From positions 1 to 58,827 of the forward strand of contig CALCSG010000507.1 of the NCBI GenBank assembly GCA_937894085.1: a stretch of DNA of 58,827 nucleotides, in the 5' to 3' direction. A program made the position numbers and the translations under genes. Below are positions 2,721 to 54,921 of the stretch, one piece after another. Origin of the DNA: an uncultured Gammaproteobacteria bacterium (GTDB lineage: Bacteria > Pseudomonadota > Gammaproteobacteria > GCA-001735895). Each line of letters opens with the position of its first letter. Position 1 is the stretch's first letter. Under the pieces are notes generated by a model, which made no database searches, was not told the origin of the DNA, and worked only from the letters and a program-made list of their open reading frames with translations.

Positions 2721-2774
2721 ATTGTTAAATTCCTAAATTGATTGAATAGCCATGCATTTATTGACCATGCAGGA

Positions 2775-6406: not shown

Positions 6407-6608
6407 ACCTGAATTTTCCCGTATAAAAAGTAAAAACTCCAGTCCCGAATAAAGGATTAACTGGAGTATCCATAAAGCTAACACATTAATTACTTTATTC
6501 TAATATTCAAATATTGATGGTGCAACCCCAGCATTGAAGGGGTATTAACAGCATAAGAGATAGGGGTTATATCTCTGATTGGGTGAAAGACCAACAAAGT
6601 GACCGAAT

Positions 6609-11685: not shown

Positions 11686-11779
11686 TAGAATCAAATATAA
11701 ATTGAGAACCACCCTTAACCACACTGATCACTGATAAACCCGGCACCTTCAGCATTACCAGAAGTTAAGAATTCAGGTA

Positions 11780-13387: not shown

Positions 13388-13640
13388 ATAAAAGGCTAGT
13401 ACAGTTGAGCACTTAAACTAATAGTCCCGGTTTATGTTAAACATAAAGTGTAGTTCAACAATTACATTTATACTGTAGAATGAAGAATCTTATTAAAATT
13501 TTAAGCTACCTGTGTCACAAAACTTGATAACTATAAATATAAATCAAATTTATAATGTATTTAAGCTGGAAAAATTGCCGTTTCCTACCTATTATCCTTA
13601 CTCTTTATATAAATAATAAATACCTTAATGTGGAGAGGGC

Positions 13641-16274
13641 ATGAAATCCCATTTCTGGAGTACCGACTGGTTTATCGGTTTAATCATAACCATAATTATC
13701 ATACTGTCTTCAGGATCCAATCAATTACAAAGTCTTGAGCGTGAAGCTTATGACTGGGGTGTAAGATCAACTGAGCGTTTTCCTTCTGAAAAAATAGCTG
13801 TCATTGCTATTGATGATGTCAGTATTGCTAATATTGGCCGATGGCCCTGGCCTCGAGATCTGCATGCAGATATGATTAAGCAACTTGCAGAAGGTGGCGC
13901 CAAGGTCATAGGTCAAACTGTTTTTTTTCTTGAACCACAAACTGATCCCGGGATGGTTTATATCCGGGAATTAGTAAATTTTTTCTCAAATGCCAGCTTC
14001 AATGATATACCTGCAGACATAGATACTTTATCTACTCTCATTGAATCCGATAAGAAACACCGTGCAACAGCTGACCTTTTACAATTTTTTCTGCAGACCA
14101 ATCTACATACACGATTAAATCAGGATCTGGACACACTCAAATCAAGACTATTTGCAGCAGAGCAGGCACTGGATACCGATAGCAAACTGGCAGACAGTAT
14201 GTCCAGAGCAAAAAATGTCGTGCTTGCCATGCCTTTCATTCTGGGTACACCGCGTGGTAAACCGGATCAGCAATTACCAAACTATATTTTAAAAAATGCC
14301 TTATCGACAATTCACGACAGGGTTCAGGCACAGGCTCAGGGGCTTTACCCCATTACCTCGATTGACGCCATAGTCCCCATTCCTAAACTTGGTGCTGTAG
14401 CTTCTGCTATCGGACATTTAAATATAATACCTGATGTTGATGGTGCTATCCGTTCTGAAGCTCTGGTAATCAAGCATTATGATCGCTTCTACCCGTCGCT
14501 GGCCTTGCAACTGGCCGCGAAAAGCCTCAACTTGAGTAACTCTGATATAAAAGTAAATCTGGCTGAAAGTGTGGAGTTAGGCTCACTCAAAATTAAAACC
14601 GATAGCCAGCTTATGATGAACACCTTTTATTACTCCGATATCGAAGGGTTTCCTGCATTCCAGGTAGATTCATTTTACGATGTCTACTCGGGTAAAATTC
14701 CCATAGAAAAGTACCAGGGTAAAATAGTTATCATTGGTGCTACTGCCGTCGGCGTGGGTACCAACCAGGTAACGCCTATTGATTCTGCCATGCCTCCTGC
14801 ATTATCACTTGCCCACTCTGTTTCCAGTATTTTAAATGAAGACTTTTTCATCAATCCTGAGTGGGGTATCTGGGTAAGACTCGGTGCCTTCCTGTTTGTA
14901 GCTATTTACCTGATGCTCATCATGCCACGTTTAAAAGCAGGTGTTGCTGCCGCTCTGACTCTGCTTATTCTGGTTGGCTTACTGGCAAGTCATTTCATCC
15001 TGATGACATCAAACACCATGTGGATTCAACTCATGGGACCGGCAGCCCTGCTTGTCATAGGGCACCTGTTGATAACCACTAAACGATTTCTTGCCACCGA
15101 ACGCGGTAAAATTAAATCAGACGAAGAATCCTCAGAAAGCAACAGAATGCTCGGCATAGCCTTTCAGTCACAGGGTCAGCTCGATATGGCCTTTGAGAAA
15201 TTCAGAAAATGCCCGCTGGATGATTCAGTTATGGAAGCCATGTATAACCTGGCACTCGATTTCGAACGAAAACGCCAGTTCAATAAGGCGACCAGTGTCT
15301 ACCAGTATATGTCAAAACACGACACTCAGTTTCGTGATATCAAAGTTCGTATGGATCGCGCACAGCAGATGGAAGAAACCGTTATGTTTGGTGGTAGTGG
15401 CGGACACGCTGGTGGAACCTTACTACTCGATGGTAACAACATAGAAAAACCCATGCTGGGACGTTATCAAGTTGAAAAAGAGCTGGGCAAAGGTGCGATG
15501 GGCATAGTTTATCTGGGTAAAGATCCTAAAATTAGCAGGGTTGTTGCCATTAAAACAATGGCTTTAGCGCAGGAATTTGAACAGGATGAACTGGAAGAAG
15601 TAAAACAACGATTCTTCCGCGAAGCAGAGACTGCCGGACGTTTAAGCCACCCGAATATCGTCACCATCTTTGATGCCGGTGAAGAACATGACCTTGCCTA
15701 TATTGCGATGGAATTTCTGAAAGGCTCTGATCTGGCTCCACATACTAAAAAAGATAACCTGCTGGACATGAAAACAGTCGTCAGTATCGTCATACGTTCT
15801 GCGGAAGGCCTTGCATTTGCACACGCACAAAACGTTGTGCACAGAGATATCAAACCTGCTAATTTAATGTATGAACCAGAATCAGATAGTTTAAAGATTA
15901 CCGATTTTGGTATCGCGCGCATAACTGATTCAAGCAAGACAAAGACCGGCATGGTCCTTGGCACACCGTCATACATGTCTCCAGAACAGTTAGCAGGAAA
16001 AAAAGTAGATGGCCGTTCTGATTTATTTTCACTAGGCGTCATGTTGTATCAGTTACTTTGCGGTTCCCTGCCCTTCAAGGCAGAATCAATGGCCAGCCTA
16101 ATGTTCAAAATAACCAATGATGAGGCTCCTGACATCCTTACTTATAGACAGGACATACCGCAATGCCTGATCCCAATTATTAATAAAACGCTCATAAAGG
16201 ACGCTGATAAGCGCTACCAGACTGGAACGGATTTAGCCAATGACTTAAAACTTTGCCTTATGAAAATGCAGTAA
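13641..16274 (+). CDS. CHASE2-sensor membrane Ser/Thr protein kinase (CHASE2 - 3 TM - TPR-like - Hanks kinase)
   Basis: CHASE2 motifs (IDDVSIANIGRWPWPR, PDVDGAIR); three hydrophobic helices; LGKGAMGIVY, VAIK, HRDIKPAN, DFGIAR, GTPSYMSPEQ. Confidence 0.92.
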   Translation: MKSHFWSTDWFIGLIITIIIILSSGSNQLQSLEREAYDWGVRSTERFPSEKIAVIAIDDVSIANIGRWPWPRDLHADMIKQLAEGGAKVIGQTVFFLEPQTDPGMVYIRELVNFFSNASFNDIPADIDTLSTLIESDKKHRATADLLQFFLQTNLHTRLNQDLDTLKSRLFAAEQALDTDSKLADSMSRAKNVVLAMPFILGTPRGKPDQQLPNYILKNALSTIHDRVQAQAQGLYPITSIDAIVPIPKLGAVASAIGHLNIIPDVDGAIRSEALVIKHYDRFYPSLALQLAAKSLNLSNSDIKVNLAESVELGSLKIKTDSQLMMNTFYYSDIEGFPAFQVDSFYDVYSGKIPIEKYQGKIVIIGATAVGVGTNQVTPIDSAMPPALSLAHSVSSILNEDFFINPEWGIWVRLGAFLFVAIYLMLIMPRLKAGVAAALTLLILVGLLASHFILMTSNTMWIQLMGPAALLVIGHLLITTKRFLATERGKIKSDEESSESNRMLGIAFQSQGQLDMAFEKFRKCPLDDSVMEAMYNLALDFERKRQFNKATSVYQYMSKHDTQFRDIKVRMDRAQQMEETVMFGGSGGHAGGTLLLDGNNIEKPMLGRYQVEKELGKGAMGIVYLGKDPKISRVVAIKTMALAQEFEQDELEEVKQRFFREAETAGRLSHPNIVTIFDAGEEHDLAYIAMEFLKGSDLAPHTKKDNLLDMKTVVSIVIRSAEGLAFAHAQNVVHRDIKPANLMYEPESDSLKITDFGIARITDSSKTKTGMVLGTPSYMSPEQLAGKKVDGRSDLFSLGVMLYQLLCGSLPFKAESMASLMFKITNDEAPDILTYRQDIPQCLIPIINKTLIKDADKRYQTGTDLANDLKLCLMKMQ

Positions 16275-16346
16275 AATCATGATTCATTATTATCCTTTAA
16301 AAACTATCTTTTTCCGAATGCAAATTTTATCTGTGCGAGAGCGGAC

Positions 16347-17168
16347 ATGAACCTGCAGGGCAAGATACAGATTGTCGGAAAAACTGATACCGGAAGGGTT
16401 CGACAAAATAACGAAGACTGTATTGGTTTTGACAGTGCATTAGGGCTACTTGTTTTAGCAGATGGCATGGGGGGACACCTCGGAGGTGAAGTTGCAAGCT
16501 CACTCACTGTCGATAGCATCATTAAATCTTCTCAGAATCACCTGCCCTCTATCAAGGCCGGTCAAATTGACTCTGAAACAGGTTTTTCACTTGAATCCAT
16601 CTGTATTCAGGAAGCCGTTGAGCTGGCAAATGACCTCGTTTATCGTAAATCAACTGAACAGCTTGAACTTCGTGGCATGGGCACCACATTAGTGGCGATG
16701 GTATTTTACGATAATCGATTTTCTCTGGCGCATATTGGTGATTCACGGTGTTATCGCTTTAGAAATAACAATTTAGACCAGATTACCAAGGACCATTCAC
16801 TGTTGCAGGAACTGGTGGATCGTGGTTTTTACACGCCCGAAGAAGCCAAGAAATCGCTCAATAAAAACCTGGTAACCAAGGCATTAGGCATAGACCCCAC
16901 AACAACACCGGATGTTCAGGAAGATTTAGCCATGAAAAATGATATCTACCTGCTATGCTCTGATGGATTAACAGATTTAGTAGAAGATGAATATATAAGC
17001 TTAACTATTCAGAGATTTAGTGATAATCTAGAAGAAGCTGCCAAGCAATTGATTACAAAGGCAAACCAGAATGGTGGAAAGGATAATATTTCTGTTATTC
17101 TGTGCCGAATAATTGAAGATTTTTCGGAATCTCCGGGCTGGTTCAAAAAATTAATTGAATGGTTTTAA
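16347..17168 (+). CDS. PP2C/Stp1-family Ser/Thr protein phosphatase
   Basis: TDTGRVRQNNED, ADGMGGH, MGTT, HIGDSR, LCSDGL, GGKDNIS. Confidence 0.92.
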   Translation: MNLQGKIQIVGKTDTGRVRQNNEDCIGFDSALGLLVLADGMGGHLGGEVASSLTVDSIIKSSQNHLPSIKAGQIDSETGFSLESICIQEAVELANDLVYRKSTEQLELRGMGTTLVAMVFYDNRFSLAHIGDSRCYRFRNNNLDQITKDHSLLQELVDRGFYTPEEAKKSLNKNLVTKALGIDPTTTPDVQEDLAMKNDIYLLCSDGLTDLVEDEYISLTIQRFSDNLEEAAKQLITKANQNGGKDNISVILCRIIEDFSESPGWFKKLIEWF

Positions 17169-17256
17169 ATGGATTACAGTGAAAGCTTTATCACTGAATA
17201 TGAAACATTTTAAGTTTTCTCAGAAGCAATAACTTAACACGAGGCTGGACATAGAC

Positions 17257-17979
17257 ATGGTCGCAAAATTGGTAATGACATCAAACTCAGGGGAACACGA
17301 AGAAATCCCTCTTACCAAGGAAACTACAACCATTGGGCGTAAACCTAGTAATGACATTCATATTGATAATTTATCTGTGAGCGGTAATCATGCGCAGGTT
17401 ATTACTATTCTTGAAGATTCTTTCCTCGAAGATTTGGGCAGCACCAATGGAACGTATGTTAATGGAAAATTAATCAAGAAACATGCTCTGGAACACGGTG
17501 ACAAAATCACTCTGGGCAAATACCAGATATCCTATGAAAGCAGCTCCGGTGGTTCAGATCAGGATTTTGAACAAACCATGATTATCCGTCCAGGTGAAGC
17601 CGGTATGCCGGAAGAAGCAGGTAGTAAGGAAATAGATAAGTCAGTACAAAAAATATCAGCTGCTATCGCCTCTGAAACTGCTTCTACTAACAGATCTGCT
17701 ACTGAGGATAAGACAGCCTGCTTACAACTATTAAGCGGAGCTAATGCCGGCAAAGAGCTTGTGCTTAAAAAAGCACTGACCACTATTGGACAACCCGGAG
17801 TTCAGGTAGCAGCTATCACAAGACGGCCACAGGGCTTCTTTTTAATTCACGTCGATGGAGGCCCGGACAATAACGTGCCTAAAGTAGCAGGTAGCCCTAT
17901 TGGATCGAATGCCCATCAGTTAAATGACCATGACATCATTGAAGTTGCCGGTGTCAAAATGGAGTTTTATACCAAATAA
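17257..17979 (+). CDS. FHA-domain protein (canonical N-terminal FHA plus degenerate C-terminal FHA-like domain)
   Basis: TIGRKPSND...SVSGNHA...DLGSTNGTYVNG; the second region LLSGANAGKELVL...TIG...LNDHDIIEVAG lacks the GR/SxxH residues. Confidence 0.85.
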   Translation: MVAKLVMTSNSGEHEEIPLTKETTTIGRKPSNDIHIDNLSVSGNHAQVITILEDSFLEDLGSTNGTYVNGKLIKKHALEHGDKITLGKYQISYESSSGGSDQDFEQTMIIRPGEAGMPEEAGSKEIDKSVQKISAAIASETASTNRSATEDKTACLQLLSGANAGKELVLKKALTTIGQPGVQVAAITRRPQGFFLIHVDGGPDNNVPKVAGSPIGSNAHQLNDHDIIEVAGVKMEFYTK

Positions 17980-17985
17980 ACAGGC

Positions 17986-18036
17986 TAGAGTGTCACTCTA
18001 AATAAAGTCTCTAAAGTTGAATTTAGCGACTTTATT
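17986..18036. other. Palindrome plus hairpin between the FHA and cyclase genes
   Basis: TAGAGTG-T-CACTCTA (17986-18000), followed directly by AATAAAGTC.CTAAA-loop-TTTAG.GACTTTATT (18001-18036). Confidence 0.4.
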
Positions 18037-18082
18037 GCAAGTGTTACCGGCTTCAGTATCCCAATAAACTGAGGAGAACTCT

Positions 18083-20314
18083 ATGCGACTGCAACAAATT
18101 TTTAGGCTTTCTTTAAGCCTTCTAATTTTAATTGCTTTGCTAATTGATTCTTCCGGTTTGTTTCACTATCCCTTCCTGCAAAAACTGGAAAACTGGACTT
18201 ACGATTCCAGGCTGAACTTCACGCTTCCGAATACGATCGATGATCAGGTTGTCATTATTGATATAGATGAAACCTCTCTGGAAAAAATTGGAAGATTCCC
18301 ATGGAAAAGGGATATTCTTGCCGAACTGGTCAATAACCTGTTCGAATTTTACCAGGTAAAAACACTTGGCTTTGATATAGTATTTGCCGAAAAAGATACC
18401 AGCTCCGGTTTAGAAGCTTTTACGAAACTGGCTGAGAATGAACTCAAAGATGATCCTCAATATCAAACTGCACTCGAAAAACTACGACCTTCGTTACAAT
18501 ATGACCACCTCTTTGCACAAAGTTTATTAAATAAAGATATTGTATTAGGCTATTACTTCAGGTCTGGCGTGAAACAGGGTGAAGCAGCCGAAATTGGATC
18601 TTTACCCTTAGCCATTACCCAAATGACTGAGGAGTGGAGTAAGCGCTTACCCATTTATAAATCAGAAGGGTATAGCGCAAACCTTCCAGTGCTACAAAAA
18701 GCTTCCAAATCCGGCGGCTATTTTGATAACCCATCCGTTGATGCAGATGGCGTTTTTCGACGTGTTCCGCTAATTCAGTCATACAACAGTTTCTTATATT
18801 CATCACTGGCATTAGCCACTGCCCGACTGGCACTAGATGACCCTAAAATCGAGCTTATCATCGAAACAGACGGCAAAAAGAACGGACAGGATTATTTCGC
18901 ACTGGAAGCTATCAACCTTGGGCAAAACAAAATACCAGTTGATCATAATGGTGCCGTGTATGTGCCATATCGGGGTAAACAGGGCAGTTTCAATTATATT
19001 TCAGCCTATAAAATTCTGCATAAAACGGCAGATGCAAATCTGTTAAAAGGCAAGATTGTACTGGTAGGTACAACGGCTCCCGGCTTACTGGACCTGCGCT
19101 CTACACCGGTACAAAATGTTTACCCGGGAGTAGAAGTTCATGCCAATATCATATCTGGAATATTGAATCAGACTATAAAACAAAAACCAGCCTGGGCCAT
19201 AGGATATGAATTTGTCATCCTTATCCTGATTGCAATAGCCATGTTCCTGGTACTCACTTATCTCTCGCCTACGCTGGCCGCAATCAGCTCACTGATAATT
19301 ACTTTAATTGTCATTACTGGAAATATACTGGCCTGGAACAGCTTATTGATTTTACCTCTGGCATCTCCCCTGCTGTTAATAGCACTGATGTTCACTTTGC
19401 ACATGACTTACGGTTTCTTCATAGAATCCAGAGGTAAGCGCCAGTTAGCGCACATGTTCGGACAATATATTCCCCCTGAGCTGGTGGATGAAATGAGTGA
19501 AACAGCCTCCGAGTTTTCGCTTGAAGGAGAAAGCAGGGAAATGACGGTACTGTTCTCAGATGTGCGCGGATTTACCACGATTTCGGAAGGTCTTGACCCT
19601 AAACAATTGACCAGCCTGATGAATGCTTTGTTAACACCAATGACACGCGTTATTCATAAAAACAGGGGAACCATCGATAAATACATGGGTGATGCCATCA
19701 TGTCATTCTGGGGAGCCCCCCTTCACGATCCGGAGCATGCCCGACACGCATTATATGCCGCCTTTGACATGATGGATGAATTGAAAATCATGCAGCAGGA
19801 ATTCCGTGAAAAAGGCTGGCCAGAAGTCAATATAGGTATTGGTTTGAACACCGGCATTATGAATGTCGGTAATATGGGGTCAGAATTCAGAGTCGCTTAT
19901 ACAGTGCTGGGAGATGCAGTTAATCTCGGCTCTCGATTAGAGGGCCTGACCAAAGCCTATGGCGTCAATATCATTGTTAGTGAAACGACCAGGTCAGCAG
20001 TTCCAGAATTCATTTTTCGCCAACTGGATGTTGTTCGAGTTAAAGGCAAAAACGAACCCATCGCGATCTTTGAGCCTATAGGCCACAAAAATGATGTCGA
20101 GAAATCCGTCATTTCTGAACTATCACGCTACAATCAGGCACTCAGGGTATATCACCAGCAAAATTGGGATAAAGCTGAAATGGAATTTTTCAATCTTTCA
20201 CAGTCCAATAAGAACTGTCAATTATATAAGGAATATCTCAACCGCATTACAAGTTACCGTAAAGCCCCTCCAGACGACAACTGGGATGGCGTCTACACTC
20301 ATACAACGAAATGA
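18083..20314 (+). CDS. CHASE2-sensor class III adenylate cyclase
   Basis: CHASE2 (IDIDETSLEKIGRFPWKR, DADGVFRRVPL); 3 TM; LFSDVRGFT, DKYMGDA, GIGLNTG, YTVLGDAVNLGSRLE (Lys/Thr adenine-specifying residues, Asn/Arg transition-state residues). Confidence 0.9.
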   Translation: MRLQQIFRLSLSLLILIALLIDSSGLFHYPFLQKLENWTYDSRLNFTLPNTIDDQVVIIDIDETSLEKIGRFPWKRDILAELVNNLFEFYQVKTLGFDIVFAEKDTSSGLEAFTKLAENELKDDPQYQTALEKLRPSLQYDHLFAQSLLNKDIVLGYYFRSGVKQGEAAEIGSLPLAITQMTEEWSKRLPIYKSEGYSANLPVLQKASKSGGYFDNPSVDADGVFRRVPLIQSYNSFLYSSLALATARLALDDPKIELIIETDGKKNGQDYFALEAINLGQNKIPVDHNGAVYVPYRGKQGSFNYISAYKILHKTADANLLKGKIVLVGTTAPGLLDLRSTPVQNVYPGVEVHANIISGILNQTIKQKPAWAIGYEFVILILIAIAMFLVLTYLSPTLAAISSLIITLIVITGNILAWNSLLILPLASPLLLIALMFTLHMTYGFFIESRGKRQLAHMFGQYIPPELVDEMSETASEFSLEGESREMTVLFSDVRGFTTISEGLDPKQLTSLMNALLTPMTRVIHKNRGTIDKYMGDAIMSFWGAPLHDPEHARHALYAAFDMMDELKIMQQEFREKGWPEVNIGIGLNTGIMNVGNMGSEFRVAYTVLGDAVNLGSRLEGLTKAYGVNIIVSETTRSAVPEFIFRQLDVVRVKGKNEPIAIFEPIGHKNDVEKSVISELSRYNQALRVYHQQNWDKAEMEFFNLSQSNKNCQLYKEYLNRITSYRKAPPDDNWDGVYTHTTK

Positions 20315-47114: not shown

Positions 47115-48071
47115 ATGATTATAAAAAGTACTTTTAAACCGCTGTGGTATTTACGTAACCCCCATCTACAGACCTTACTGGCGAATATACTTCACCCTGT
47201 AAATCCGCAAGTTAGTTACGAGACTGTTACCCTTGATGATGGTGATACACTGGAAATTGCCAGGGGTACGGCCACTGGTACCGACACCACCCTGATCCTG
47301 CACGGACTCGAAGGATCTCTTCGATCCGCCTATGCCCAACGTCTGATAAATGCATTAAACAAACAAAATATGCCAGTTGTCTTCATGTTTTTCAGAGGCT
47401 GCAATGGCAAACCAAACGCCAGCGTTCGCAGTTATCATTCAGGAGAAACCGGTGACCTGAGAACGGTCATCAACCATTTAAAACATACTGGCAGTAAGCG
47501 AATCGCCCTGGTGGGATATTCTTTAGGGGGTAATGTAACTCTCAAATACATGGGTGAACAGCAAACTGACGACTCGATAGTGTGTGCAACCGCCACTTCC
47601 GTACCACTGTTACTGAATGTTTGTGCGACACGAATGAATCAGGGTTTTTCTAAAATTTACCAGCACGACCTGATGCGTCGACTGATTAAAAAAGTAAAGC
47701 AAAAACAAACAATATTAAGCGCAGCAGGATTTTCAGAAAAACCAGAGTCTCTTAAAACCTTTGTTGAGTTTGATGATGCCTATACAGCGCCTTCGCATGG
47801 TTTTAAAAATGCTCAGGATTATTATCAGAAATGTAGCAGCAGACAGTTTCTAAAAGGCATTAATAAGCCAACCTTAATGATTCATAGTACAGATGATCCA
47901 TTTATGACAACTTCCGTTTTACCTGATGGCACCGAAATTTCTGACCAGGTTACTCTGGAACTATCAAGTTTCGGCGGCCATGTCGGTTTCATCGGAGGTA
48001 AACTTTTCAAACCAGAATACTGGCTTGAACCCCGGATTATTCACTTTATACGGCAGCAGTTTGGCTATTAA
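47115..48071 (+). CDS. yheT: YheT-like alpha/beta hydrolase
   Basis: NPHLQT, LHGLEGS, GYSLGG nucleophile, DDPF, GGHVGF. Confidence 0.85.
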   Translation: MIIKSTFKPLWYLRNPHLQTLLANILHPVNPQVSYETVTLDDGDTLEIARGTATGTDTTLILHGLEGSLRSAYAQRLINALNKQNMPVVFMFFRGCNGKPNASVRSYHSGETGDLRTVINHLKHTGSKRIALVGYSLGGNVTLKYMGEQQTDDSIVCATATSVPLLLNVCATRMNQGFSKIYQHDLMRRLIKKVKQKQTILSAAGFSEKPESLKTFVEFDDAYTAPSHGFKNAQDYYQKCSSRQFLKGINKPTLMIHSTDDPFMTTSVLPDGTEISDQVTLELSSFGGHVGFIGGKLFKPEYWLEPRIIHFIRQQFGY

Positions 48072-48155: not shown

Positions 48156-48557
48156 CTAAATCCAGTTCTCAACCTTTAATTCAGGTACTCTTGTAAAATC
48201 TTAAGTATTAGCAGTAACAACGATTAAATTTAACGACAAAGCCTGTGCTGCTATTAACAGGTCAATTGGGCCGATGGGTCTACCTTTCTTTTTAAGTAAA
48301 TTTCGTATTGCTGCATAATGGCAATCGGCAGGCTCTTCAAAGGGAATGATTTCCATCGCAGATAGTATAACCTCTACACGTTGAGTCAACTTTTCTGATT
48401 CTTTCCTGGTCGCACAAAAGCGCAGTTCGCTCGCGACTATGATGCTAGTGCAAATACTTTCTTCACCCAATTCCCTGATTTTTTTCATGACATCTCCTTG
48501 AGGGTTACGCACTAAATCAGAAATAATGTTGGTATCTAGCAGATATCGCTGACTCAT
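48156..48557 (-). pseudogene. vapC: VapC (PIN) toxin with an in-frame premature TAA at 48201-48203
   Basis: YLLDTNIIS...SIIVASEL...GPIDLLIAAQA...VVTANT*, continuing in the same frame as DFTRVPELKVENWI* (the usual VapC C-terminus). Confidence 0.82.
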
Positions 48558-48796
48558 AACTCAATATCATCTAGCCCTTTAAGATCGGTATCAACATCAG
48601 GAAACTGCACGGTTAATGGCTCCATCTCTGACAGAATAGCCAGTAGGCCAGTTTTACGTATTGGCTCAATAATTAATTTATCACCTTCCTTATGTATTAT
48701 CGCTTTATCTCCTTCCAGTTCAAACTCTCGGGGGATGCGGATTGCCTGATTTCGCCCATTTCGAAATAAACTGACTTGTCTTTCTGAGTGCATCAC
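48554..48796 (-). CDS. vapB: VapB/VagC antitoxin (AbrB/MazE/SpoVT fold)
   Basis: LFRNGRNQAIRIPREFEL, GDKLIIEP; overlaps the vapC start; AGGTGA RBS. Confidence 0.9.
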   Translation of the reverse strand: MMHSERQVSLFRNGRNQAIRIPREFELEGDKAIIHKEGDKLIIEPIRKTGLLAILSEMEPLTVQFPDVDTDLKGLDDIEL

Positions 48797-48992: not shown

Positions 48993-49694
48993 TCATTCAT
49001 CAAAAACAATATTAACACGTCGGTTATGCTTACCTTTCTTCTCAATTTTTCGGATTTTTACAGCACCAATTTCAGCCGTTGAATTCACATGGGTACCACC
49101 GCAGGGCTGCAAGTCGACACCTGCAAAGTTTATTAGCCGAATTGAACCGTTTCCGCGTGGTGGTTGAACTGACATGGTGCGCACCAGCTCAGGTTGTTCA
49201 TCCAGTTCCTGTTCACTGATCCAGCTCATGGTCATCGCATGATTTTCCTTAATTAATCGATTTAACTCAACATTAATGGCTTCTTTATCCATCGGTTGTT
49301 CTGCATCAAAATCCAGTCTTGCACTGTCTTCCCGAATTGAACCACCGGTAACACCAAAAGGAATAATCGAGCTCAACAGGTGCATGCAGGAATGCATACG
49401 CATCAACCGGTGGCGGCGCTGCCAGTTTATTTCGACGTTAACGCTCTCACCGAGCTGCGGAAGTATCACACCCTCTTCCAGTACATGTTGAATACCGGAC
49501 TCGCCTTTCAGAGTATCGACAATGTTAACGTTAGTCCCATCGGAATAAGTCATCACCCCGCTATCCCCGGGCTGCCCGCCTCCCAGGGGATAAAAAACTG
49601 TTTGATCCAATACAACAGAACCATCCTGGACGTTAGTCACTTTAGCTTCGCAGGACTTTAGATAACTATCTTTTCTAAACAATTCTTCAGTCAT
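48993..49694 (-). CDS. alaX: Trans-editing protein AlaX (AlaXp-M)
   Basis: TVFYPLGGGQPGD, MRMHSCMHLL (HxxxH), QPCGGTHV (CxxxH). Confidence 0.92.
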   Translation of the reverse strand: MTEELFRKDSYLKSCEAKVTNVQDGSVVLDQTVFYPLGGGQPGDSGVMTYSDGTNVNIVDTLKGESGIQHVLEEGVILPQLGESVNVEINWQRRHRLMRMHSCMHLLSSIIPFGVTGGSIREDSARLDFDAEQPMDKEAINVELNRLIKENHAMTMSWISEQELDEQPELVRTMSVQPPRGNGSIRLINFAGVDLQPCGGTHVNSTAEIGAVKIRKIEKKGKHNRRVNIVFDE

Positions 49695-49732: not shown

Positions 49733-51139
49733 CTAGGCAAATCCCATCAAACCAGGAAGCCACAGTACAATACCCGGTGCAGCTACCAGCACTGCAATGG
49801 TCAATGCATCAGCCACAAAGAATGGCATAACGCCACGAAACACATCCTGTACCGAGCATTCCGGGCGCACTCCTGCCACCACGAAACAGTTAAGCCCTAT
49901 CGGAGGTGTTATCAGGCAAAATTCCGCCATCTTGACCACGATGATGCCGAACCAGATAGAGCAACCTACATCGGTCACACCAAAGGCTGAATCGGCTACA
50001 CTGACCCCTTCACCACCGTTCAAAGCTATGACAGCTGGATACACCACGGGAAGAGTCAGCAACAACATGCCAATAGCGTCCATAAACATACCGAGCACAG
50101 CATACGCCAGCAGGATAAAAACAAGGGTCATCATTGGACTTTGATCAAGCCCGGAAATCCATTCAGAAAATGCCGACGGTAAATCCGCAAACCCGAGAAA
50201 TCTTACATATAATAAAACGCCCCAGATGATGGTAAAAATCATCACCGTGAGTTTAGCCGTTTCAATTAGAGCACCTTTTAATTCTTTCCAGCGCATACCT
50301 TTATAGAGCGCCATGCATAAAATAACGAACGCCCCTAATGATCCAGCTTCGGTGGGCGTTCCTACGCCGCCGTAAATACACACAACGATGATACCTACCA
50401 CAAAGAATATGGGCAGTGCGCCAGGCAAAGATTCAAATCGCTGCTTCCAGCTAAACCCTCGAACCGGAGGGCCAAAGTTTTTATTGGTCATCGCCAGAAA
50501 AATAACCAGGCCACCGTAAACCAGTGCAGAAAATGCACCCGGTAAAAAACCTGCCATTAATAATGCACCAACATCCTGTTCCACGATAATCGCATATATT
50601 ACCAGAATAGCCGATGGAGGAATTAATGAAGCCAGGGTGCCACTGGCGGCAACCACACCTGCAGCAAACCGTTTGTTATAACCGAGTTTCAGCATTTCGG
50701 GAATAGCGATACGCGCGAACACGGCCGAGGTAGCCACTGAGGCACCGGACACCGCGGCAAAACCTGCCGCTGAAAATACCGTGGCCACACCCATTCCACC
50801 GGGTAACCAGCCTACCCAGCGTTTAGCGGCTTCAAAAAGTGCTCGAGTCAGCCCGGCATGATAGGCCAGAAAGCCGATTAAAATAAAAGTAGGAATCAAT
50901 GACAGCGCCAGTGTAGACACTTTTGAATGTGGAATAGTGCCTGCCATTTTCATGGCCACTAAAAAACCACGTTCAAATCCCATTTTTGCGGAGAATATCC
51001 ATAGCAGACCTAAAAAACCAGCCAGTGCAGCAGCGAAGGCAACCCGAACTCCGATCACCACAAACAACAACATGAATCCGGTCACCCATAAGCCGATAGA
51101 AATTGAATCCATTTGCGCCATCGTTTGAAATAGCGTCAT
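49733..51139 (-). CDS. dctM: TRAP transporter large permease DctM
   Basis: AGFAAVSGASVAT, GTLASLIPPS, GVGTPTEAG, LITPPIGLNCFV. Confidence 0.92.
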   Translation of the reverse strand: MTLFQTMAQMDSISIGLWVTGFMLLFVVIGVRVAFAAALAGFLGLLWIFSAKMGFERGFLVAMKMAGTIPHSKVSTLALSLIPTFILIGFLAYHAGLTRALFEAAKRWVGWLPGGMGVATVFSAAGFAAVSGASVATSAVFARIAIPEMLKLGYNKRFAAGVVAASGTLASLIPPSAILVIYAIIVEQDVGALLMAGFLPGAFSALVYGGLVIFLAMTNKNFGPPVRGFSWKQRFESLPGALPIFFVVGIIVVCIYGGVGTPTEAGSLGAFVILCMALYKGMRWKELKGALIETAKLTVMIFTIIWGVLLYVRFLGFADLPSAFSEWISGLDQSPMMTLVFILLAYAVLGMFMDAIGMLLLTLPVVYPAVIALNGGEGVSVADSAFGVTDVGCSIWFGIIVVKMAEFCLITPPIGLNCFVVAGVRPECSVQDVFRGVMPFFVADALTIAVLVAAPGIVLWLPGLMGFA

Positions 51140-51777
51140 GACTCATTCCTGCCTGAATTTGAGTCAACAGCACCACCAATCAAGGACTCGGCTTCTGCGG
51201 CGGCGACATCAGCGGCAGATTCTATTAAGGGCACCGCTACAGGACGATCTCCCCCTCGTTTTATTGCGCGAGCATAACCCCAGACCTGTAACAGTAAACG
51301 TAATGCCAATATTGTTAAAGCAACTGGCACGACCAGTTTTGCCGGCCAGGTAGGCAAGTTAATATCCAGAGAAGAGTCGCCTATTTGATAGGCCCGTAAA
51401 AAATGTAAAAAAGAACCAGCAATTAAGATCAAAGTAATAAACAACATTAGCAGAGTTGATATTAACTCTGTCACCCAGAGAGGGCGTCCATGAATATGCC
51501 CGACTAGCATATCCATTCGAATATGCCCGCCTTCACGTTGCGTGAAGGCTATGCCCAGGAAGGCAAAAAATGCCATGGACTGCTCAACCCAGTCAATGTA
51601 ACCCGATATCGGCAAAGAAAATATCCAGCGTCCTAGCACATTAGCCGTAGCCATAAATACAAGCAAAAAGATTACTATGCCACCTATTAAAGTAAGCACT
51701 GATTCTACTTTATGAAATAATTGATCAGCCCGGCTTAATGCGGAATCATCTTCCAGTATTGTGTGTGAACCAGCCAT
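51136..51777 (-). CDS. dctQ: TRAP transporter small permease DctQ
   Basis: Four TM; NVLGRW, GGHIRMDML, PTWPAK. Confidence 0.9.
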   Translation of the reverse strand: MAGSHTILEDDSALSRADQLFHKVESVLTLIGGIVIFLLVFMATANVLGRWIFSLPISGYIDWVEQSMAFFAFLGIAFTQREGGHIRMDMLVGHIHGRPLWVTELISTLLMLFITLILIAGSFLHFLRAYQIGDSSLDINLPTWPAKLVVPVALTILALRLLLQVWGYARAIKRGGDRPVAVPLIESAADVAAAEAESLIGGAVDSNSGRNES

Positions 51778-51805
51778 TACAAAAACTTACTTGCGAGTAG
51801 CAGCA

Positions 51806-51874
51806 GTAGGGTGTGCCAGGAGCACCATTCAATTTTATTATCAACTTGCCTGTGGTGCGCATGGCGCACCCTAC
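51806..51874. repeat. Inverted pair of GTAG-tagged REP palindromes (REPIN-like)
   Basis: Plus strand GTAG-GGTGTGCCAGGAGCACC (51806-51826); minus strand GTAG-GGTGCGCCATGCGCACC (51874-51854); 27-bp spacer. Confidence 0.7.
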
Positions 51875-51882
51875 CGGCCACT

Positions 51883-52887
51883 TTATTTATTAAAAAGTTC
51901 GGAAGTGAAATCAAATAAAGCTTTGGAGTCAAATTGCCCTGCATATTTTTTAACCCAGTCCTCACGTACTGAAGCAGCCAGATTATTCAGCTCAGTCGTT
52001 TGAGAGGCTGAAAATGTAACTCGTTGTAGACCAGCATCTGTAACTGCCTGCTCATATTTTCCAGTCGTATTGTTATTATAGTTATCGACATAAAAACTAA
52101 TTGCTTCATCAACCGAACCCAGCAGGGCCTGTTTATTTTTTGCACTGAGAGAATTCAGCGCATCCGTATTCACCACTACAGGACAATTAGCCGAACCTAG
52201 ATTCAGGTTGGTAGAAGCCCACTTGCCCACTTTGTAAGTTTTAGTTGCTAAATGCGCATGAGGTGCAAAAGTAGCGGCATCGATAACACCGGAATCCATA
52301 GATTGACGAACTTCAGAGAAAGGAACGCCTGTTTTAACGGCTCCTAATTTTCCTAACACACCCATGATACCACCCGGTCCACGTACTCTCACTCCTTTGA
52401 AATCAGCTAATGACTCGATGGGATCAGTTTTACTGATGATATTGTATTGAGGCATCGGGGTAGACATCAAAATAGTCGCATTCCAGCGAGCCAGATCTTT
52501 AACTACAACCGGATGTTGATGTACTTTATTATAAATTTCTGCAACACGAGCCAGTGAAACCTCTTTGCCGAAGGGTAATTCGGTGACCGTGATCGATGGA
52601 TTTTTATCATTATGGTAAAACGAGCAAAATTGTGCCATTTCGAAAGCTCCGAAAGAGATCCCATCCAGGTTTTCTTTAGCCTTGGATAATCCACCGTAGG
52701 AAATTTTTAACTTAAAATCGCCATTTGTTTTTTGATCCACCAGTTCAGCCAGTTTCTCTACATTTTCTGTAAAAGCACGGCGCTTACCCCAAAGTGATAC
52801 ATTCCATTCTGTCGCTGCCTGGGCTTCAGCAGCCAGAAATCCAATACTAATTGCTGATATTAAAATGTGTTTTTGGTACTTTTTCAT
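51883..52887 (-). CDS. dctP: TRAP solute-binding protein DctP
   Basis: Signal peptide; GVRVRGPGG with the conserved carboxylate-binding Arg; V.FSEV.Q.M.SGVID. Confidence 0.88.
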   Translation of the reverse strand: MKKYQKHILISAISIGFLAAEAQAATEWNVSLWGKRRAFTENVEKLAELVDQKTNGDFKLKISYGGLSKAKENLDGISFGAFEMAQFCSFYHNDKNPSITVTELPFGKEVSLARVAEIYNKVHQHPVVVKDLARWNATILMSTPMPQYNIISKTDPIESLADFKGVRVRGPGGIMGVLGKLGAVKTGVPFSEVRQSMDSGVIDAATFAPHAHLATKTYKVGKWASTNLNLGSANCPVVVNTDALNSLSAKNKQALLGSVDEAISFYVDNYNNNTTGKYEQAVTDAGLQRVTFSASQTTELNNLAASVREDWVKKYAGQFDSKALFDFTSELFNK

Positions 52888-53274
52888 AGTTTCTCCGGTA
52901 ATATCATTGTCATTTATAACTAAATCATCAACTCTATAAACAAAAGGGATTGAAGTTTAAAACCCCGGTAAGTTTTTGATTAAAGTAAAGCGATAGCGTT
53001 GTCATCATACGATAGACTTTTTTTACCACAATCCCGACCAGGTTCTTTTCATTGCACACTTGCAGCCAGGTTCACGAGTACGGATTTTATTGTATAGCCA
53101 TTGATACAGCCTTATAAGCGGCCTAATAATACTCTAAAAATTAACGCTCATGTTAACGTAAACTAAAGTTTTGACAAACGGACCCAACAGCTTCAATATA
53201 ATAACCCTACATTTATCATTGTAGTAACTAGTGCAGTCCTATAGTTTGACTGAAATACAGAGTGTGATAAACCC

Positions 53275-54213
53275 ATGTCTGAAGAATTTCCAATCGTAGC
53301 CATCACCGGTGCATCCGGTTCCGGTAGCTCCTCGATCACTAAAGCCTTTGAACATATTTTCTTTCGTGAACGCGTTAGGGCGGCTTACATCCAGGGCAGC
53401 GCATTTCATCGTTATGGCCGCAAGGAAATGAAACAACGGGCCCGCGAAGCACGTGAAGAAGGCTGGGAACTTAGCCATTTCGGACCAGATGCCAATCACC
53501 TGGATAAACTGGAAAGCCTGTTTTATCAATACGCGGCGACCGGCACCGGCATGAACCGGTATTACCTGCACTCAAAAAAAATCGCGACAGACTGGGGACA
53601 GAAAGTGGGTACATTAACGCCGTGGAAAGAGCTGGATGGTGATACCGATTTATTACTATACCGGGGTTTACATGGTGCGGCGATAGACGGCGATATCGAT
53701 ATTTCCAGCTACCCGGATTTACTCATCGGCATGGTACCTAACGTCAACCTGGAATGGATTCGTAAAATAAAACGTGACACATCTTTACGCGGATATTCCC
53801 AAAAAGCAGTCAAGAAAACCATCCTGCGTCGAATGTCAGATTATGTGAATCACATAACCCCGCAATTCTCACGTACTCACATTAATATACAGATGATTGC
53901 GACGGTCGATACTTCAGATCCGTTCAGCGCTAAAGAAGAGCCCACCAAGGACGAATGCTATATTGTGATTAATTTTCAAAACGTTAAAAAACCGGATTAC
54001 CATGAATTGATGAGCTTGCTACCAGGCTCTTTCATGAGTCGCAGGGATACACTGGTCGTTCCCGGCGGCATGATGATTAGTGCCATTGAAGTCGTACTGA
54101 TGCCACTGGTTCATGACCTGGTGCAGAGAAGTCGGGAAATTCGCAATATCACCGATGTGCCAAAATCTCGTGGAGCCGGTTTATTGGGGGCATTGCAACA
54201 ATCCAGTACTTAA
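53275..54213 (+). CDS. Phosphoribulokinase (PrkB/CbbP) homologue with substituted catalytic residues
   Basis: PIVAITGASGSG, SHFGPDAN, GLHG, NLEWI.K..RD...RGY, PQFSRTHIN, VDTSDPF. The conserved EGDxFH reads QGSAFH and the conserved YEGLH reads YRGLH. Confidence 0.88.
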   Translation: MSEEFPIVAITGASGSGSSSITKAFEHIFFRERVRAAYIQGSAFHRYGRKEMKQRAREAREEGWELSHFGPDANHLDKLESLFYQYAATGTGMNRYYLHSKKIATDWGQKVGTLTPWKELDGDTDLLLYRGLHGAAIDGDIDISSYPDLLIGMVPNVNLEWIRKIKRDTSLRGYSQKAVKKTILRRMSDYVNHITPQFSRTHINIQMIATVDTSDPFSAKEEPTKDECYIVINFQNVKKPDYHELMSLLPGSFMSRRDTLVVPGGMMISAIEVVLMPLVHDLVQRSREIRNITDVPKSRGAGLLGALQQSST

Positions 54214-54385
54214 CAGGAATCAATATTGAGTGGCATAAAAGTACCTGATTACACCCGAAACTCAGCCTCTCTCAGATTTTACGAGAGAATAGCCTCTCGC
54301 AAAGCAGCAAAGAGCGCGAAGGAAAACCAGGACTTTTTTTGGTCACATGTCGTTATAAAAAACTCGGCCGCAAGCGCGCCGAGTT

Positions 54386-54829
54386 TTAAAACAAATCCAG
54401 CTGTCTCGACCTGGTTTCTTTCTTCTCGTACTCTGTAAGCTGGCTTCGAACGTAATTTCTAATCACTTCTTCGTTGGCATTTCCTATGGTTTCAACGAAA
54501 TAGCTTTTAGTCCATAACTTTCCACCCCAAAAATATCGTTTCTTAATCTCAGGGTATCGACGAAAAAATTATCTAGCCGAAATACTTTTAATTATCTGCA
54601 TCACATCACTCGGAGACATCTTTGGGATTCCACGTACTACCATATGAAGGTGATCTTCAGGTATTTCTAATTCGACTATATCAATATTATAGTCATATCC
54701 TATTTTTTCAATGATTCCTTTGAGTGATTCTCGATAAGGTTCATGAAATACCTTATGCCTATATTTTGGTATCCAAACAAAGTGGTGCATCAATCTATAT
54801 ACATGATGCGTATTCTTTTGTAACTCCAT
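54386..54829 (-). pseudogene. tnpA: IS200 transposase TnpA with an in-frame TAA at 54569-54571
   Basis: MELQKNTHHVYRLMHHFVWIPKYR...EDHLH...KSISAR*, continuing in frame as FFRRYPEIKKRYFWGGKLWTKSYFVETIGNANEEVIRNYVRSQ...QLDLF*. The stop lies before the catalytic Tyr. Confidence 0.85.
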
Positions 54830-54830
54830 A

Positions 54831-54880
54831 AGCTGGATAGCTGACAATGGGAAAAACATCCCATTGTCAGCTATCCAGCT
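54831..54880. promoter_or_regulatory. Perfect 22-bp hairpin abutting the tnpA start codon
   Basis: AGCTGGATAGCTGACAATGGGA-AAAACA-TCCCATTGTCAGCTATCCAGCT, ending 1 nt before the ATG at 54829. Confidence 0.7.
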
Positions 54881-54921
54881 CGGGGGCAAACCACCCGAGA
54901 TTTACGCTATTCGGTTAAAGA

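What the first reader, a model, noticed from the sequence alone, without database searches (positions are those of the whole stretch)
53275..54213. Probable pseudo-phosphoribulokinase: catalytic Asp42 is Ser and Mg-ATP Glu131 is Arg
Seen: a full-length, uninterrupted PRK fold with QG-S42-AFH (codon AGC, 53398-53400) and LY-R130-GLHG (codon CGG, 53662-53664), a GASGSGSSS P-loop, QMIA in place of QRVP, and a ~22-aa C-terminal extension. Each substitution needs at least two base changes, so sequencing error is unlikely. H45, R49, K53, K164, R167, D168, R172 and R185/R186 are retained. Established: in Rhodobacter sphaeroides PRK, D42 is critical for catalysis and E131 for Mg-ATP use, and both are kept even in E. 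coli PrkB. Inference: this is a catalytically dead or repurposed paralogue that may still bind Ru5P/RuBP, NADH or nucleotide, with Arg possibly replacing the metal. It could act as a metabolite sensor or a regulatory subunit of the PRK octamer. No cbb genes are nearby.
Basis: partly seen in the sequence, partly recalled or inferred. Interest (0 to 1): 0.8.

Follow-up and report, generated by a model that had tools for sequence, protein, structure and literature searches.

The report
Conserved catalytically disabled phosphoribulokinase paralogue
This gene encodes a full-length relative of the Calvin-cycle enzyme phosphoribulokinase that lacks two residues needed for catalysis. It belongs to a large, strongly conserved branch of such proteins in marine and sulfur-oxidising gammaproteobacteria, which genome pipelines label as the real enzyme.

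Summary
ORF 53275-54213(+) is a 312-aa bacterial-type PRK homologue (45% identical to R. sphaeroides PRK, predicted fold TM 0.83-0.92 to 1A7J). It has Ser at the catalytic Asp42 position and Arg at the Walker-B Glu131 position.

This is not strain-specific decay:
- The best 120 database relatives (57-100% identity) carry R or K at 131, and 117 of them lack Asp at 42.
- They form one clade (bootstrap 200/200). Every sufficiently complete PRK cluster outside it, including E. coli PrkB, keeps D42/E131.
- dN/dS is 0.03-0.06, and the clade has as many invariant positions as canonical PRKs.
- Further fixed changes are Q164R, R208M and a conserved 20-25 aa C-terminal tail (…SRxIRxI..PKxRGAGLLG).
- One subclade has also wrecked its P-loop. 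The Ru5P-phosphate site is kept.

The gene is always solitary, with its own conserved promoter, and is never next to cbb genes. Members occur in autotrophs (Solemya symbionts, Thiothrix, Sedimenticola). For two of these, published genome descriptions indicate a separate second prk/cbbP gene.

The best reading is a pseudoenzyme that binds a phosphorylated ligand without metal and no longer makes RuBP. Its actual role is untested. I found no description of it. NCBI's PRK model scores it just above cutoff.

The parts
53275..54213 (+). CDS of the PRK-like protein (312 aa plus stop)
   Evidence: ORF and translation. PF00485 at 1.4e-52. NF011997 at 399 bits. 1A7J at 1.4e-78. AlphaFold pLDDT 90.8, and Foldseek to 1A7J TM 0.83/0.92.
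53308..53334 (+). Walker-A / P-loop, residues 12-20, GASGSGSSS (canonical GSSGAGTST)
   Evidence: Alignment. G12, S14, G15 and G17 are at least 90% conserved in the clade. The loop is replaced by GASDHSSTS in the Thiolinea/Thiotrichaceae subclade.
53398..53400 (+). Codon 42 AGC = Ser, at the position of the catalytic-base Asp42
   Evidence: Among the 120 closest relatives, 117 have no Asp here: S or N in 115, A and G once each. It is D in 37/37 canonical sequences. Asp is the catalytic base in PRK (PMC9978339).
53662..53664 (+). Codon 130 CGG = Arg, at the position of Walker-B Glu131
   Evidence: R or K in 120/120 closest relatives. E in 37/37 canonical sequences.
53761..53763 (+). Codon 163 = Arg, replacing canonical invariant Gln164, next to catalytic Lys165
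   Evidence: R in 48/50 non-redundant clade members, against Q in 37/37 canonical sequences.
53893..53895 (+). Codon 207 = Met, replacing canonical Arg208 (QMIA for QRVP)
   Evidence: M or L in 46/50 clade members, against R in 36/37 canonical sequences.
54130..54210 (+). Clade-specific C-terminal tail (residues 286-312), SREIRNITDVPKSRGAGLLGALQQSST
   Evidence: Present in all clade members and absent from canonical PRKs. R287 is invariant; S286, R290 and G302 are at least 90% conserved. The model gives pLDDT 88 falling to 75 up to about residue 309, with a short strand at 302-304.
53171..53199 (+). Conserved promoter-like element: -35 TTGACA (53171-53176), a 17-nt spacer, then CAATAT
   Evidence: This is the only block conserved in otherwise unalignable upstream regions of 9 relatives that are 73-85% identical at protein level. 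The consensus scan did not list it because its -10 element is weak. Promoter function is inferred.
54359..54387 (.). Stable hairpin between an A-run and a U-run, a bidirectional terminator-like element downstream of the gene
   Evidence: RNA fold of -16.9 kcal/mol, z = -4.4, with 0 of 200 shuffles as stable. The scan did not list it because it has only 4 U.
47115..48071 (+). Context only: yheT orthologue (alpha/beta hydrolase). It recalls the yheT-yheU-prkB arrangement of E. coli.
   Evidence: 38% identical to E. coli YheT over the full length, E 4e-71. NF008218 at 297 bits against a 267-bit cutoff. E. coli locus. The same linkage is seen in close relatives only.

Best explanation
The gene encodes a member of a previously unseparated sister clade of bacterial (octameric-type) phosphoribulokinases that has given up Ru5P phosphorylation but is kept by selection.

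Shown:
- The catalytic-base Asp and the Mg-ATP (Walker B) Glu are replaced, by Ser/Asn and Arg/Lys.
- A second Arg (R163) has been fixed beside Lys164, and canonical Arg208 is lost.
- No new acidic residue has appeared near the site.
- The Ru5P-phosphate pocket (H45, R49, H99, R167, D168, R172) and, in most members, the P-loop glycines remain among the most conserved parts of the protein.

Inferred mechanism:
- The acidic, metal-binding catalytic centre has become a basic pocket. It binds a phosphorylated ligand directly, without Mg2+. Candidates are a pentose mono- or bisphosphate such as Ru5P or RuBP, possibly together with a nucleotide or pyrophosphate moiety held by the P-loop.
- Ligand occupancy is passed on through protein contacts. 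The candidate contact surface is the conserved basic/hydrophobic C-terminal tail (SRxIRxI..PKxRGAGLLG).
- The protein therefore acts as a metabolite-binding regulatory pseudoenzyme. It is expressed from its own promoter as a single-gene unit, in bacteria that mostly appear to be sulfur-oxidising, CBB-cycle gammaproteobacteria.

My confidence by step:
- Not a Mg-ATP-dependent PRK: about 0.8.
- Still binds a sugar phosphate or other phosphate ligand: about 0.6.
- Regulatory or sensor role: about 0.35.
For: Homology and fold.

Substitutions are clade-wide:
- All 120 closest relatives have R/K131, and 117 have no Asp at 42.
- The sufficiently complete clusters of the 1.84-billion-protein representative search outside this clade have D42/E131.
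- E. coli PrkB keeps both residues.
- The clade bipartition is recovered in 200/200 bootstraps.

Selection:
- dN/dS is 0.03-0.06 wherever dS is unsaturated.
- There are 45 invariant positions in the clade against 43 in canonical PRKs, at similar divergence.

Active site:
- Co-fixed changes are Q164R, R208M/L, E40Q, D203H and K22T/I. H45, R49, K165, R168, D169, R173 and R187 are retained.
- The clade-specific conserved residues contain no new acid near the site.
- One subclade has also destroyed Walker A (GASDHSSTS) while the rest of the protein stays conserved.

Residue roles from the literature:
- Asp is the catalytic base (PMC9978339).
- Walker B coordinates Mg2+; H45 and K165 bind Ru5P; R168 binds ATP (PMC5241800).

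Genomic setting:
- The gene is solitary in 33 loci, with no cbb gene or second PRK within 6-10 kb.
- Canonical PRKs in Methylococcaceae loci follow transketolase/FBP aldolase directly.
- The promoter box is conserved.

Second PRK-family gene in autotrophs:
- Thiothrix species have two phylogenetically distant prk copies (PMC7767063).
- In the Solemya velum symbiont, the annotated CbbP (JV46_10890) sits in a different neighbourhood from the clade member P0080.
Against: - No biochemical data exist for any member.
- Pseudoenzyme calls made from sequence are sometimes overturned, by migrated catalytic residues or different chemistry.
- D168 (RsPRK D169), K164 and H99 are all retained and could support some catalysis.
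- The ligand is unknown, and no partner protein is suggested by gene neighbourhood.
- Whether each genome also has a canonical PRK was not tested genome-wide. It rests on two literature-based inferences.
- Whether the window's own organism has RuBisCO or a canonical PRK is unknown.
- I could not inspect model coordinates, so the geometry of R130/R163 relative to the P-loop is inferred from homology.
Confidence: 0.55

Rival explanations
1. It is still an enzyme, but with changed chemistry. It could be a kinase or phosphotransferase that works without a metal-bound Walker B. It might use another phosphoryl donor (for example PPi or polyphosphate, which would suit the PPi-economising CBB variants of chemosynthetic symbionts) or another acceptor.
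For: - Conservation of the active-site cleft is as strong as in real PRKs.
- K164, D168, H99, H45 and most P-loops are retained.
- The gain of two arginines would suit a more anionic, metal-free substrate.
- Several hosts use a PPi-dependent CBB variant (PMC4287430).
Against: - No candidate general base replaces Asp42, and no new acidic residue is fixed.
- A whole subclade has lost the P-loop glycines yet keeps the rest of the protein. That is hard to reconcile with any phosphoryl transfer from a P-loop-bound donor.
- No metabolic genes are linked to it.
Confidence: 0.2
2. It is a 'prozyme'-type partner. The dead paralogue co-assembles with the canonical PRK octamer and tunes its activity, as dead paralogues do for trypanosomatid AdoMetDC and deoxyhypusine synthase.
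For: - A second prk/cbbP gene is reported or inferred in Thiothrix and the Solemya symbiont.
- The overall fold is the same.
- There is precedent for dead-paralogue activation (PMC5201418 and PMC3663545, listed).
Against: - The C-terminal domain, which forms the dimer and octamer contacts in RsPRK (PMC5241800), is the most diverged and least constrained region of the clade.
- The clade is never linked to cbbP.
- The two paralogues are only 43-51% identical.
Confidence: 0.12
3. It is the organism's working phosphoribulokinase. On this reading, Asp42 and Glu131 are dispensable in this lineage.
For: - It passes NCBI's equivalog cutoff and is annotated as PRK.
- It occurs in CBB autotrophs.
- I could not show a canonical PRK in the window's own genome.
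Against: - Both residues are invariant in the canonical PRKs sampled.
- Thiothrix and the Solemya symbiont appear to have a separate PRK.
- The clade scores 359-415 bits on the PRK model, against 495-525 for canonical PRKs.
- It is never in a cbb operon, and its P-loop is lost in one subclade.
Confidence: 0.05
4. It is a decaying gene or a sequencing artefact with no function.
For: One related metagenomic contig (L062) carries an in-frame stop at codon 185.
Against: - The identical protein was found on 15-16 independent contigs.
- There are more than 120 clusters with intact full-length ORFs, and dN/dS is 0.03-0.06.
- Each substitution needs two base changes.
Confidence: 0.02

Closest known systems
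Rhodobacter sphaeroides phosphoribulokinase PrkA (PDB 1A7J), the bacterial octameric, NADH-activated type
   Same: - 45% identity over 288 residues.
- Same fold (TM 0.83/0.92).
- Same Ru5P-phosphate residues (H45, R49, R168, R173), plus K165, D169 and lid R187.
- Similar P-loop glycine pattern.
   Different: - Catalytic Asp42 is Ser, and Walker-B Glu131 is Arg.
- Q164 is Arg and R208 is Met.
- Canonical-invariant R221/R234 are not kept in the clade.
- The C-terminal domain is relaxed, and there is an extra conserved tail of about 22 aa.
- It is not in a cbb operon.
Escherichia coli PrkB (b3355), an uncharacterised PRK homologue of heterotrophic gammaproteobacteria
   Same: - 48% identity over 284 aa.
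- A stand-alone gene, not linked to cbb genes.
- A yheT orthologue lies upstream in the window and its close relatives, as in E. coli yheT-yheU-prkB.
   Different: - PrkB keeps D42, E131, Q164 and R208 and has no tail.
- It scores 525 bits on NF011997, against 399 here.
- It falls outside the clade.
RuBisCO-like proteins (form IV RuBisCO)
   Same: This is an analogy, not homology. It is another CBB-enzyme family with a conserved branch that lost catalytic residues and is routinely mis-annotated as the CBB enzyme. (Established knowledge; cited in the reference list of PMC5241800.)
   Different: RLPs are a different protein family and turned out to be enzymes with new reactions. No activity is known here.
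Dead-paralogue regulators ('prozymes') of trypanosomatid AdoMetDC and deoxyhypusine synthase
   Same: A catalytically disabled paralogue retained under selection alongside an active one (PMC5201418 and PMC3663545).
   Different: Hetero-oligomer formation has been demonstrated there. Here the oligomer-forming domain has diverged and nothing has been tested.

Membership tests
Phosphoribulokinase, bacterial type (EC 2.7.1.19; NCBIfam NF011997, Pfam PF00485) | Sequence and fold homology to PRK over the full length | tested here: met
   PF00485 at 1.4e-52. NF011997 at 399 bits against a 362-bit cutoff. 1A7J at 1.4e-78. Foldseek TM 0.83/0.92.
Phosphoribulokinase, bacterial type (EC 2.7.1.19; NCBIfam NF011997, Pfam PF00485) | Catalytic-base aspartate (RsPRK Asp42) | tested here: not met
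   Ser42 (AGC) in the window. No Asp in 117/120 clade members; D in the canonical sequences sampled.
Phosphoribulokinase, bacterial type (EC 2.7.1.19; NCBIfam NF011997, Pfam PF00485) | Walker-B acidic residue for Mg-ATP (RsPRK Glu131) | tested here: not met
   Arg130 (CGG) in the window. R/K in 120/120 clade members; E in the canonical sequences sampled.
Phosphoribulokinase, bacterial type (EC 2.7.1.19; NCBIfam NF011997, Pfam PF00485) | Walker-A P-loop | tested here: inconclusive
   The glycine pattern is kept in the window (GASGSGSSS, with T18 changed to S). It is lost in one subclade (GASDHSSTS). The model's lowest body confidence falls in the 10-residue block (11-20) holding the P-loop (pLDDT 69).
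Phosphoribulokinase, bacterial type (EC 2.7.1.19; NCBIfam NF011997, Pfam PF00485) | Ru5P-binding residues (H45, R49, K165, R168, R173) | tested here: met
   All are present in the window and at least 90% conserved in the clade. Their roles are given in PMC5241800.
Phosphoribulokinase, bacterial type (EC 2.7.1.19; NCBIfam NF011997, Pfam PF00485) | Association with cbb/CBB-cycle genes or RuBisCO | tested here: not met
   None in the 58.8-kb window, and none within 6-10 kb in 33 clade loci. Canonical PRKs in L020 and L024 follow transketolase/FBA.
Phosphoribulokinase, bacterial type (EC 2.7.1.19; NCBIfam NF011997, Pfam PF00485) | ATP-dependent phosphorylation of Ru5P to RuBP | not testable with these tools
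   This needs an enzyme assay.
Pseudoenzyme (catalytically disabled paralogue kept by selection) | Loss of conserved catalytic motifs in an otherwise intact fold | tested here: met
   The definition follows PMC10211241 (abstract).
Pseudoenzyme (catalytically disabled paralogue kept by selection) | Purifying selection and phylogenetic persistence | tested here: met
   dN/dS 0.03-0.06. More than 120 clusters at 90% identity, reaching down to 57% identity. 45 invariant positions. Bootstrap 200/200.
Pseudoenzyme (catalytically disabled paralogue kept by selection) | Demonstrated absence of the ancestral activity | not testable with these tools
   This needs an assay.
E. coli PrkB-type stand-alone PRK homologues | Positional linkage to yheT | tested here: inconclusive
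   A yheT orthologue lies 5.2 kb upstream in the window and about 1.1 kb upstream in L001. It is absent from the other clade loci examined.
E. coli PrkB-type stand-alone PRK homologues | Groups with PrkB in the tree and keeps PrkB's catalytic residues | tested here: not met
   PrkB lies with the canonical sequences, outside the clade.

The most novel reading that the evidence does not exclude
The clade is a new functional class derived from PRK. It could be a metal-independent receptor for RuBP or another pentose bisphosphate that controls carbon-fixation flux in chemoautotrophs. Alternatively it could be an enzyme that phosphorylates Ru5P, or a related sugar phosphate, from a non-nucleotide donor such as pyrophosphate. 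That would extend the PPi-economising Calvin-cycle variant already proposed for chemosynthetic symbionts.
Probability: 0.12. Interest if true: 0.85.

Novelty: new variant of a known kind. Interest (0 to 1): 0.62.

Why it matters
PRK together with RuBisCO is the standard marker pair for calling the Calvin cycle in genomes and metagenomes. Here a whole, widespread branch passes NCBI's 'equivalog' PRK model by only a few dozen bits and is named phosphoribulokinase, although it lacks the catalytic base and the Mg-ATP ligand. That can produce false or double-counted CBB calls. It probably also explains the 'two phylogenetically distant prk copies' reported for Thiothrix.

Biologically it would be the PRK counterpart of the RuBisCO-like proteins: a conserved non-canonical derivative of a CBB enzyme. 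It is found in environmentally important sulfur oxidisers and animal symbionts, and its function is open. That function is directly testable with simple assays.

Tried and rejected
- Strain-specific decay or sequencing error was rejected.
- I looked for an operon partner by clustering all ORFs in 33 loci. No family recurs beyond close relatives. The most frequent neighbour is a lipid-A acyltransferase in 7 loci; others are housekeeping genes.
- An Rfam scan of the whole window found nothing, so there is no riboswitch upstream.
- The consensus promoter/terminator scan did not list the conserved -35 box or the hairpin. Both were found by alignment and folding instead.
- tblastn against 72,556 plasmids found only canonical PRKs below 60% identity, and no clade member.
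Genome-wide co-occurrence could therefore not be tested.
- The second homology search (P0122) returned only alphaproteobacterial canonical PRKs.
- The cluster-member look-up gave no organism names.
- Literature searches for a PRK pseudoenzyme, a PRK paralogue, or Asp42/Glu131 found no description of this clade.
- I could not find open-access text for the roles of R221/R234/R257 and E131. Those roles are from memory of the Miziorko-laboratory mutagenesis papers.
- I looked for a migrated catalytic residue and found none among the clade-specific conserved positions.
Full report
**1. The observation**

The ORF at 53275-54213(+) is intact and encodes 312 aa. It matches the Pfam PRK/uridine-kinase domain end to end (E 1.4e-52). 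It scores 399 bits on NCBI's phosphoribulokinase equivalog model NF011997, whose cutoff is 362. The best solved structure by sequence is R. sphaeroides PRK 1A7J (E 1.4e-78). The residue-by-residue alignment puts Ser42 opposite Asp42, Arg130 opposite Glu131, and QMIA opposite QRVP. The codons are AGC (53398-53400) and CGG (53662-53664). The P-loop is GASGSGSSS. H45, R49, K53, K164, R167, D168, R172 and R185/R186 are present. E. coli PrkB keeps both acidic residues. An AlphaFold model built on 69 sequences is confident (pLDDT 90.8), and its best structural match is 1A7J (TM 0.83/0.92).

**2. It is a clade, not an accident**

- The word-indexed search of 5.8 billion proteins gave 7,072 hits. Each of the 120 listed (57-100% identity, about 307-320 aa) has Arg or Lys at 131. 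At position 42, 115 have Ser or Asn, two have Ala or Gly, and only three have Asp.
- In the exhaustive search of 1.84 billion cluster representatives, the whole group collapses into one 50%-identity cluster (P0121). The other sufficiently complete clusters have D42/E131.
- A neighbour-joining tree places the group on a long stem apart from alpha-, beta- and gammaproteobacterial canonical PRKs and from E. coli PrkB. The bipartition is recovered in 200/200 bootstraps.
- Members are 43-51% identical to canonical PRKs, which are 50-76% identical to one another.
- The identical protein was read on 15 of the 16 contigs recorded for it, from several marine metagenomes.

**3. Selection**

- Among close relatives, dN/dS is 0.03-0.06 wherever dS is not saturated.
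- In sets thinned to below 80% identity, the clade has 45 invariant positions in residues 1-288 and the canonical set has 43.
- The segments around the substrate pocket stay very conserved: FHRY.R..M, LL.YRGLHG, NLEW.R...RD...R, and ITPQF.RTHIN.Q....VDTS.PF.
- Residues 211-270 are clearly more variable than in canonical PRKs. In RsPRK this C-terminal domain makes the dimer and octamer contacts, and it is linked with NADH/AMP regulation (PMC5241800).

**4. What changed and what stayed**

Positions invariant or nearly so in canonical PRKs but switched in the clade:

| Canonical residue | In the clade |
|---|---|
| D42 | S/N |
| E131 | R/K |
| Q164 | R |
| R208 | M/L |
| E40 | Q |
| D203 | H |
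| K22 | T/I |
| T18 | S |
| R234 | H/N |
| R221 | variable |
| R186 | D/E in most members (still R in the window's subclade) |

- Retained are H45, R49, H100, K165, R168, D169, R173 and R187.
- The residues conserved in the clade but rare in canonical PRKs are E4, R33, Y38, L66, F84, Q109, R130, P147, R163, R290 and G302. None of these is a new acidic group that could take over as base or metal ligand.
- The net effect is that an acidic, Mg-binding catalytic centre has become basic.
- A Thiolinea/Thiotrichaceae/activated-sludge subclade has additionally replaced the P-loop GxG by D-H-S (GASDHSSTS), while the rest of the protein stays conserved. This argues strongly against any P-loop-dependent phosphoryl transfer in at least that subclade.
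- Asp is the catalytic base of PRK (PMC9978339). Walker B coordinates Mg2+, H45 and K165 bind Ru5P, and R168 binds ATP (PMC5241800).
- The quantitative effects of the D42 and E131 mutations, and the assignment of R221/R234/R257 to the NADH site, are from my memory of the Miziorko-laboratory papers. I could not check them in the held library.

**5. The tail**

Every clade member ends with an extra 20-25 residues that canonical PRKs lack. The consensus is SR-x-I/L-R-x-I/V-..-PK-x-R/K-G/x-A/S-G-L-L-G. R287 is invariant, and S286, R290 and G302 are at least 90% conserved. The model predicts it with moderate confidence and a short strand at 302-304. It is the most obvious candidate for a new interaction surface. 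This is inference.

**6. Genomic setting**

- The gene is monocistronic. A perfect TTGACA box (53171-53176), followed after 17 nt by a CAATAT-type element, is the only conserved block in the otherwise unalignable upstream regions of nine relatives.
- A stable hairpin between A- and U-runs lies downstream.
- In 33 loci carrying a clade member, no neighbouring gene family is conserved beyond close relatives. There is no second PRK and no CBB gene within 6-10 kb.
- By contrast, canonical PRKs in two Methylococcaceae loci directly follow transketolase and FBP aldolase.
- In the window and its closest relatives a yheT orthologue lies upstream (38% identity to E. coli YheT; NF008218 above cutoff). 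This recalls the E. coli yheT-yheU-prkB locus. The linkage is not seen elsewhere in the clade, so I treat it as a hint about origin only.

**7. Who has it, and do they also have a real PRK?**

- Named members come from Solemya velum and S. elarraichensis gill symbionts, Candidatus Thiothrix, Thiolinea, Sedimenticola and uncultured Thiotrichaceae. The window's own lineage consists of unnamed marine Gammaproteobacteria MAGs.
- For Thiothrix, a genome paper states that prk is present in two phylogenetically distant copies, 'typical for Thiothrix species' (PMC7767063).
- For the S. velum symbiont, the genome paper lists CbbP as JV46_10890, near lpxH (JV46_10860) and rnf (JV46_10790-10830). The clade member P0080 instead lies immediately after ccoNOQP-ccoGHIS (CcoN-P are JV46_10130-10170) and before rpoH-ftsXEY (FtsY is JV46_25480). 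These are therefore two different genes. This inference assumes conserved gene order between strains.
- The window also carries a cytoplasmic molybdoenzyme operon whose three subunit sizes fit SoeABC-type sulfite dehydrogenase, as I recall it. It has no twin-arginine motif. This is a lead that the organism oxidises sulfur, not proof.

**8. Interpretation**

- The data exclude decay and make ordinary Mg-ATP-dependent PRK activity very unlikely.
- The best-supported model is a pseudoenzyme that still uses the old substrate cleft, now lined with R130 and R163, to bind a phosphorylated ligand without metal. It would then act through protein contacts.
- A changed-chemistry enzyme remains possible, but it lacks a candidate base and conflicts with the P-loop-less subclade.
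- A prozyme-like subunit of the canonical octamer is disfavoured by the divergence of the oligomerisation domain.

**9. Relation to what is known, and novelty**

- The protein belongs to the PRK/uridine-kinase superfamily and is the sister of bacterial-type PRKs. It fails two defining catalytic features of the enzyme family, so it should not be filed as a phosphoribulokinase.
- NCBI's model scores clade members at 359-415 bits against 495-525 for canonical PRKs, with the cutoff at 362. They are therefore annotated as PRK.
- Nine full-text searches found no paper that separates or characterises this clade.
- I rate it a new variant of a known kind. In concept it is comparable to the RuBisCO-like proteins.

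Noticed in passing
window 1740-6484 (-): A three-gene molybdoenzyme operon: a 995-aa molybdopterin subunit with an N-terminal Fe-S motif and no twin-arginine signal, a 241-aa 4Fe-4S subunit, and a 326-aa DmsC/NrfD-like anchor. No NCBIfam equivalog reaches its cutoff. The sizes and cytoplasmic orientation resemble SoeABC sulfite dehydrogenase of sulfur oxidisers, as I recall it.
   Followed up: partly
window 10627-20314: A dense signalling cluster. It contains a cNMP-binding plus rhodanese protein, a GAF plus HD(-GYP-like) protein, a CHASE2 Ser/Thr protein kinase (877 aa), a PP2C phosphatase, an FHA-domain protein and a CHASE2 adenylate/guanylate cyclase. A Crp-family regulator lies at 986-1693.
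   Followed up: no
window 48201-48796 (-) and 49733-52887 (-): A PIN-domain (VapC-like) toxin with a small upstream partner ORF, and a DctPQM TRAP transporter. Both lie in the stretch between yheT and the PRK-like gene (the TRAP transporter between alaX and the PRK-like gene). In relative L001 alaX is followed directly by the PRK-like gene, so these look like insertions into the locus.
   Followed up: partly
window 54569-54889 (-): An IS200/IS605-type Y1 transposase ORF (106 aa). It matches profile positions 2-78 of 121, so it may be truncated. It lies just downstream of the PRK-like gene and is also present on other contigs carrying the identical protein (L027, L030).
   Followed up: no
window 48993-49694 (-); also L001 6886-7587 and L036 11913-12632: A free-standing AlaX-type alanyl-tRNA editing protein. 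It scores 222 bits on NF040865, below the 300-bit cutoff. It lies near the PRK-like gene in the window lineage and within 4 kb in one distant clade member. This is probably coincidence.
   Followed up: partly
L062 10001-10939: One activated-sludge-type contig carries a clade member with an in-frame stop at codon 185, at the position of the conserved lid arginine. Its close relative L069 is intact. This is either a sequencing error or a rare inactivated copy.
   Followed up: partly
L036 4628-6804: In one distant member's genome, the PRK-like gene is preceded by a glycosyl-transferase-family-3 protein (TrpD/nucleoside-phosphorylase type) and a protein with a faint LCIB-type carbonic-anhydrase hit. 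This was seen only once.
   Followed up: no
L018 3993-4907: A LysR-family regulator (possible CbbR) lies about 1.1 kb upstream of a canonical PRK (with an OmpW-family gene between them) in a sediment gammaproteobacterial MAG, whose PRK is not flanked by other cbb enzymes.
   Followed up: no
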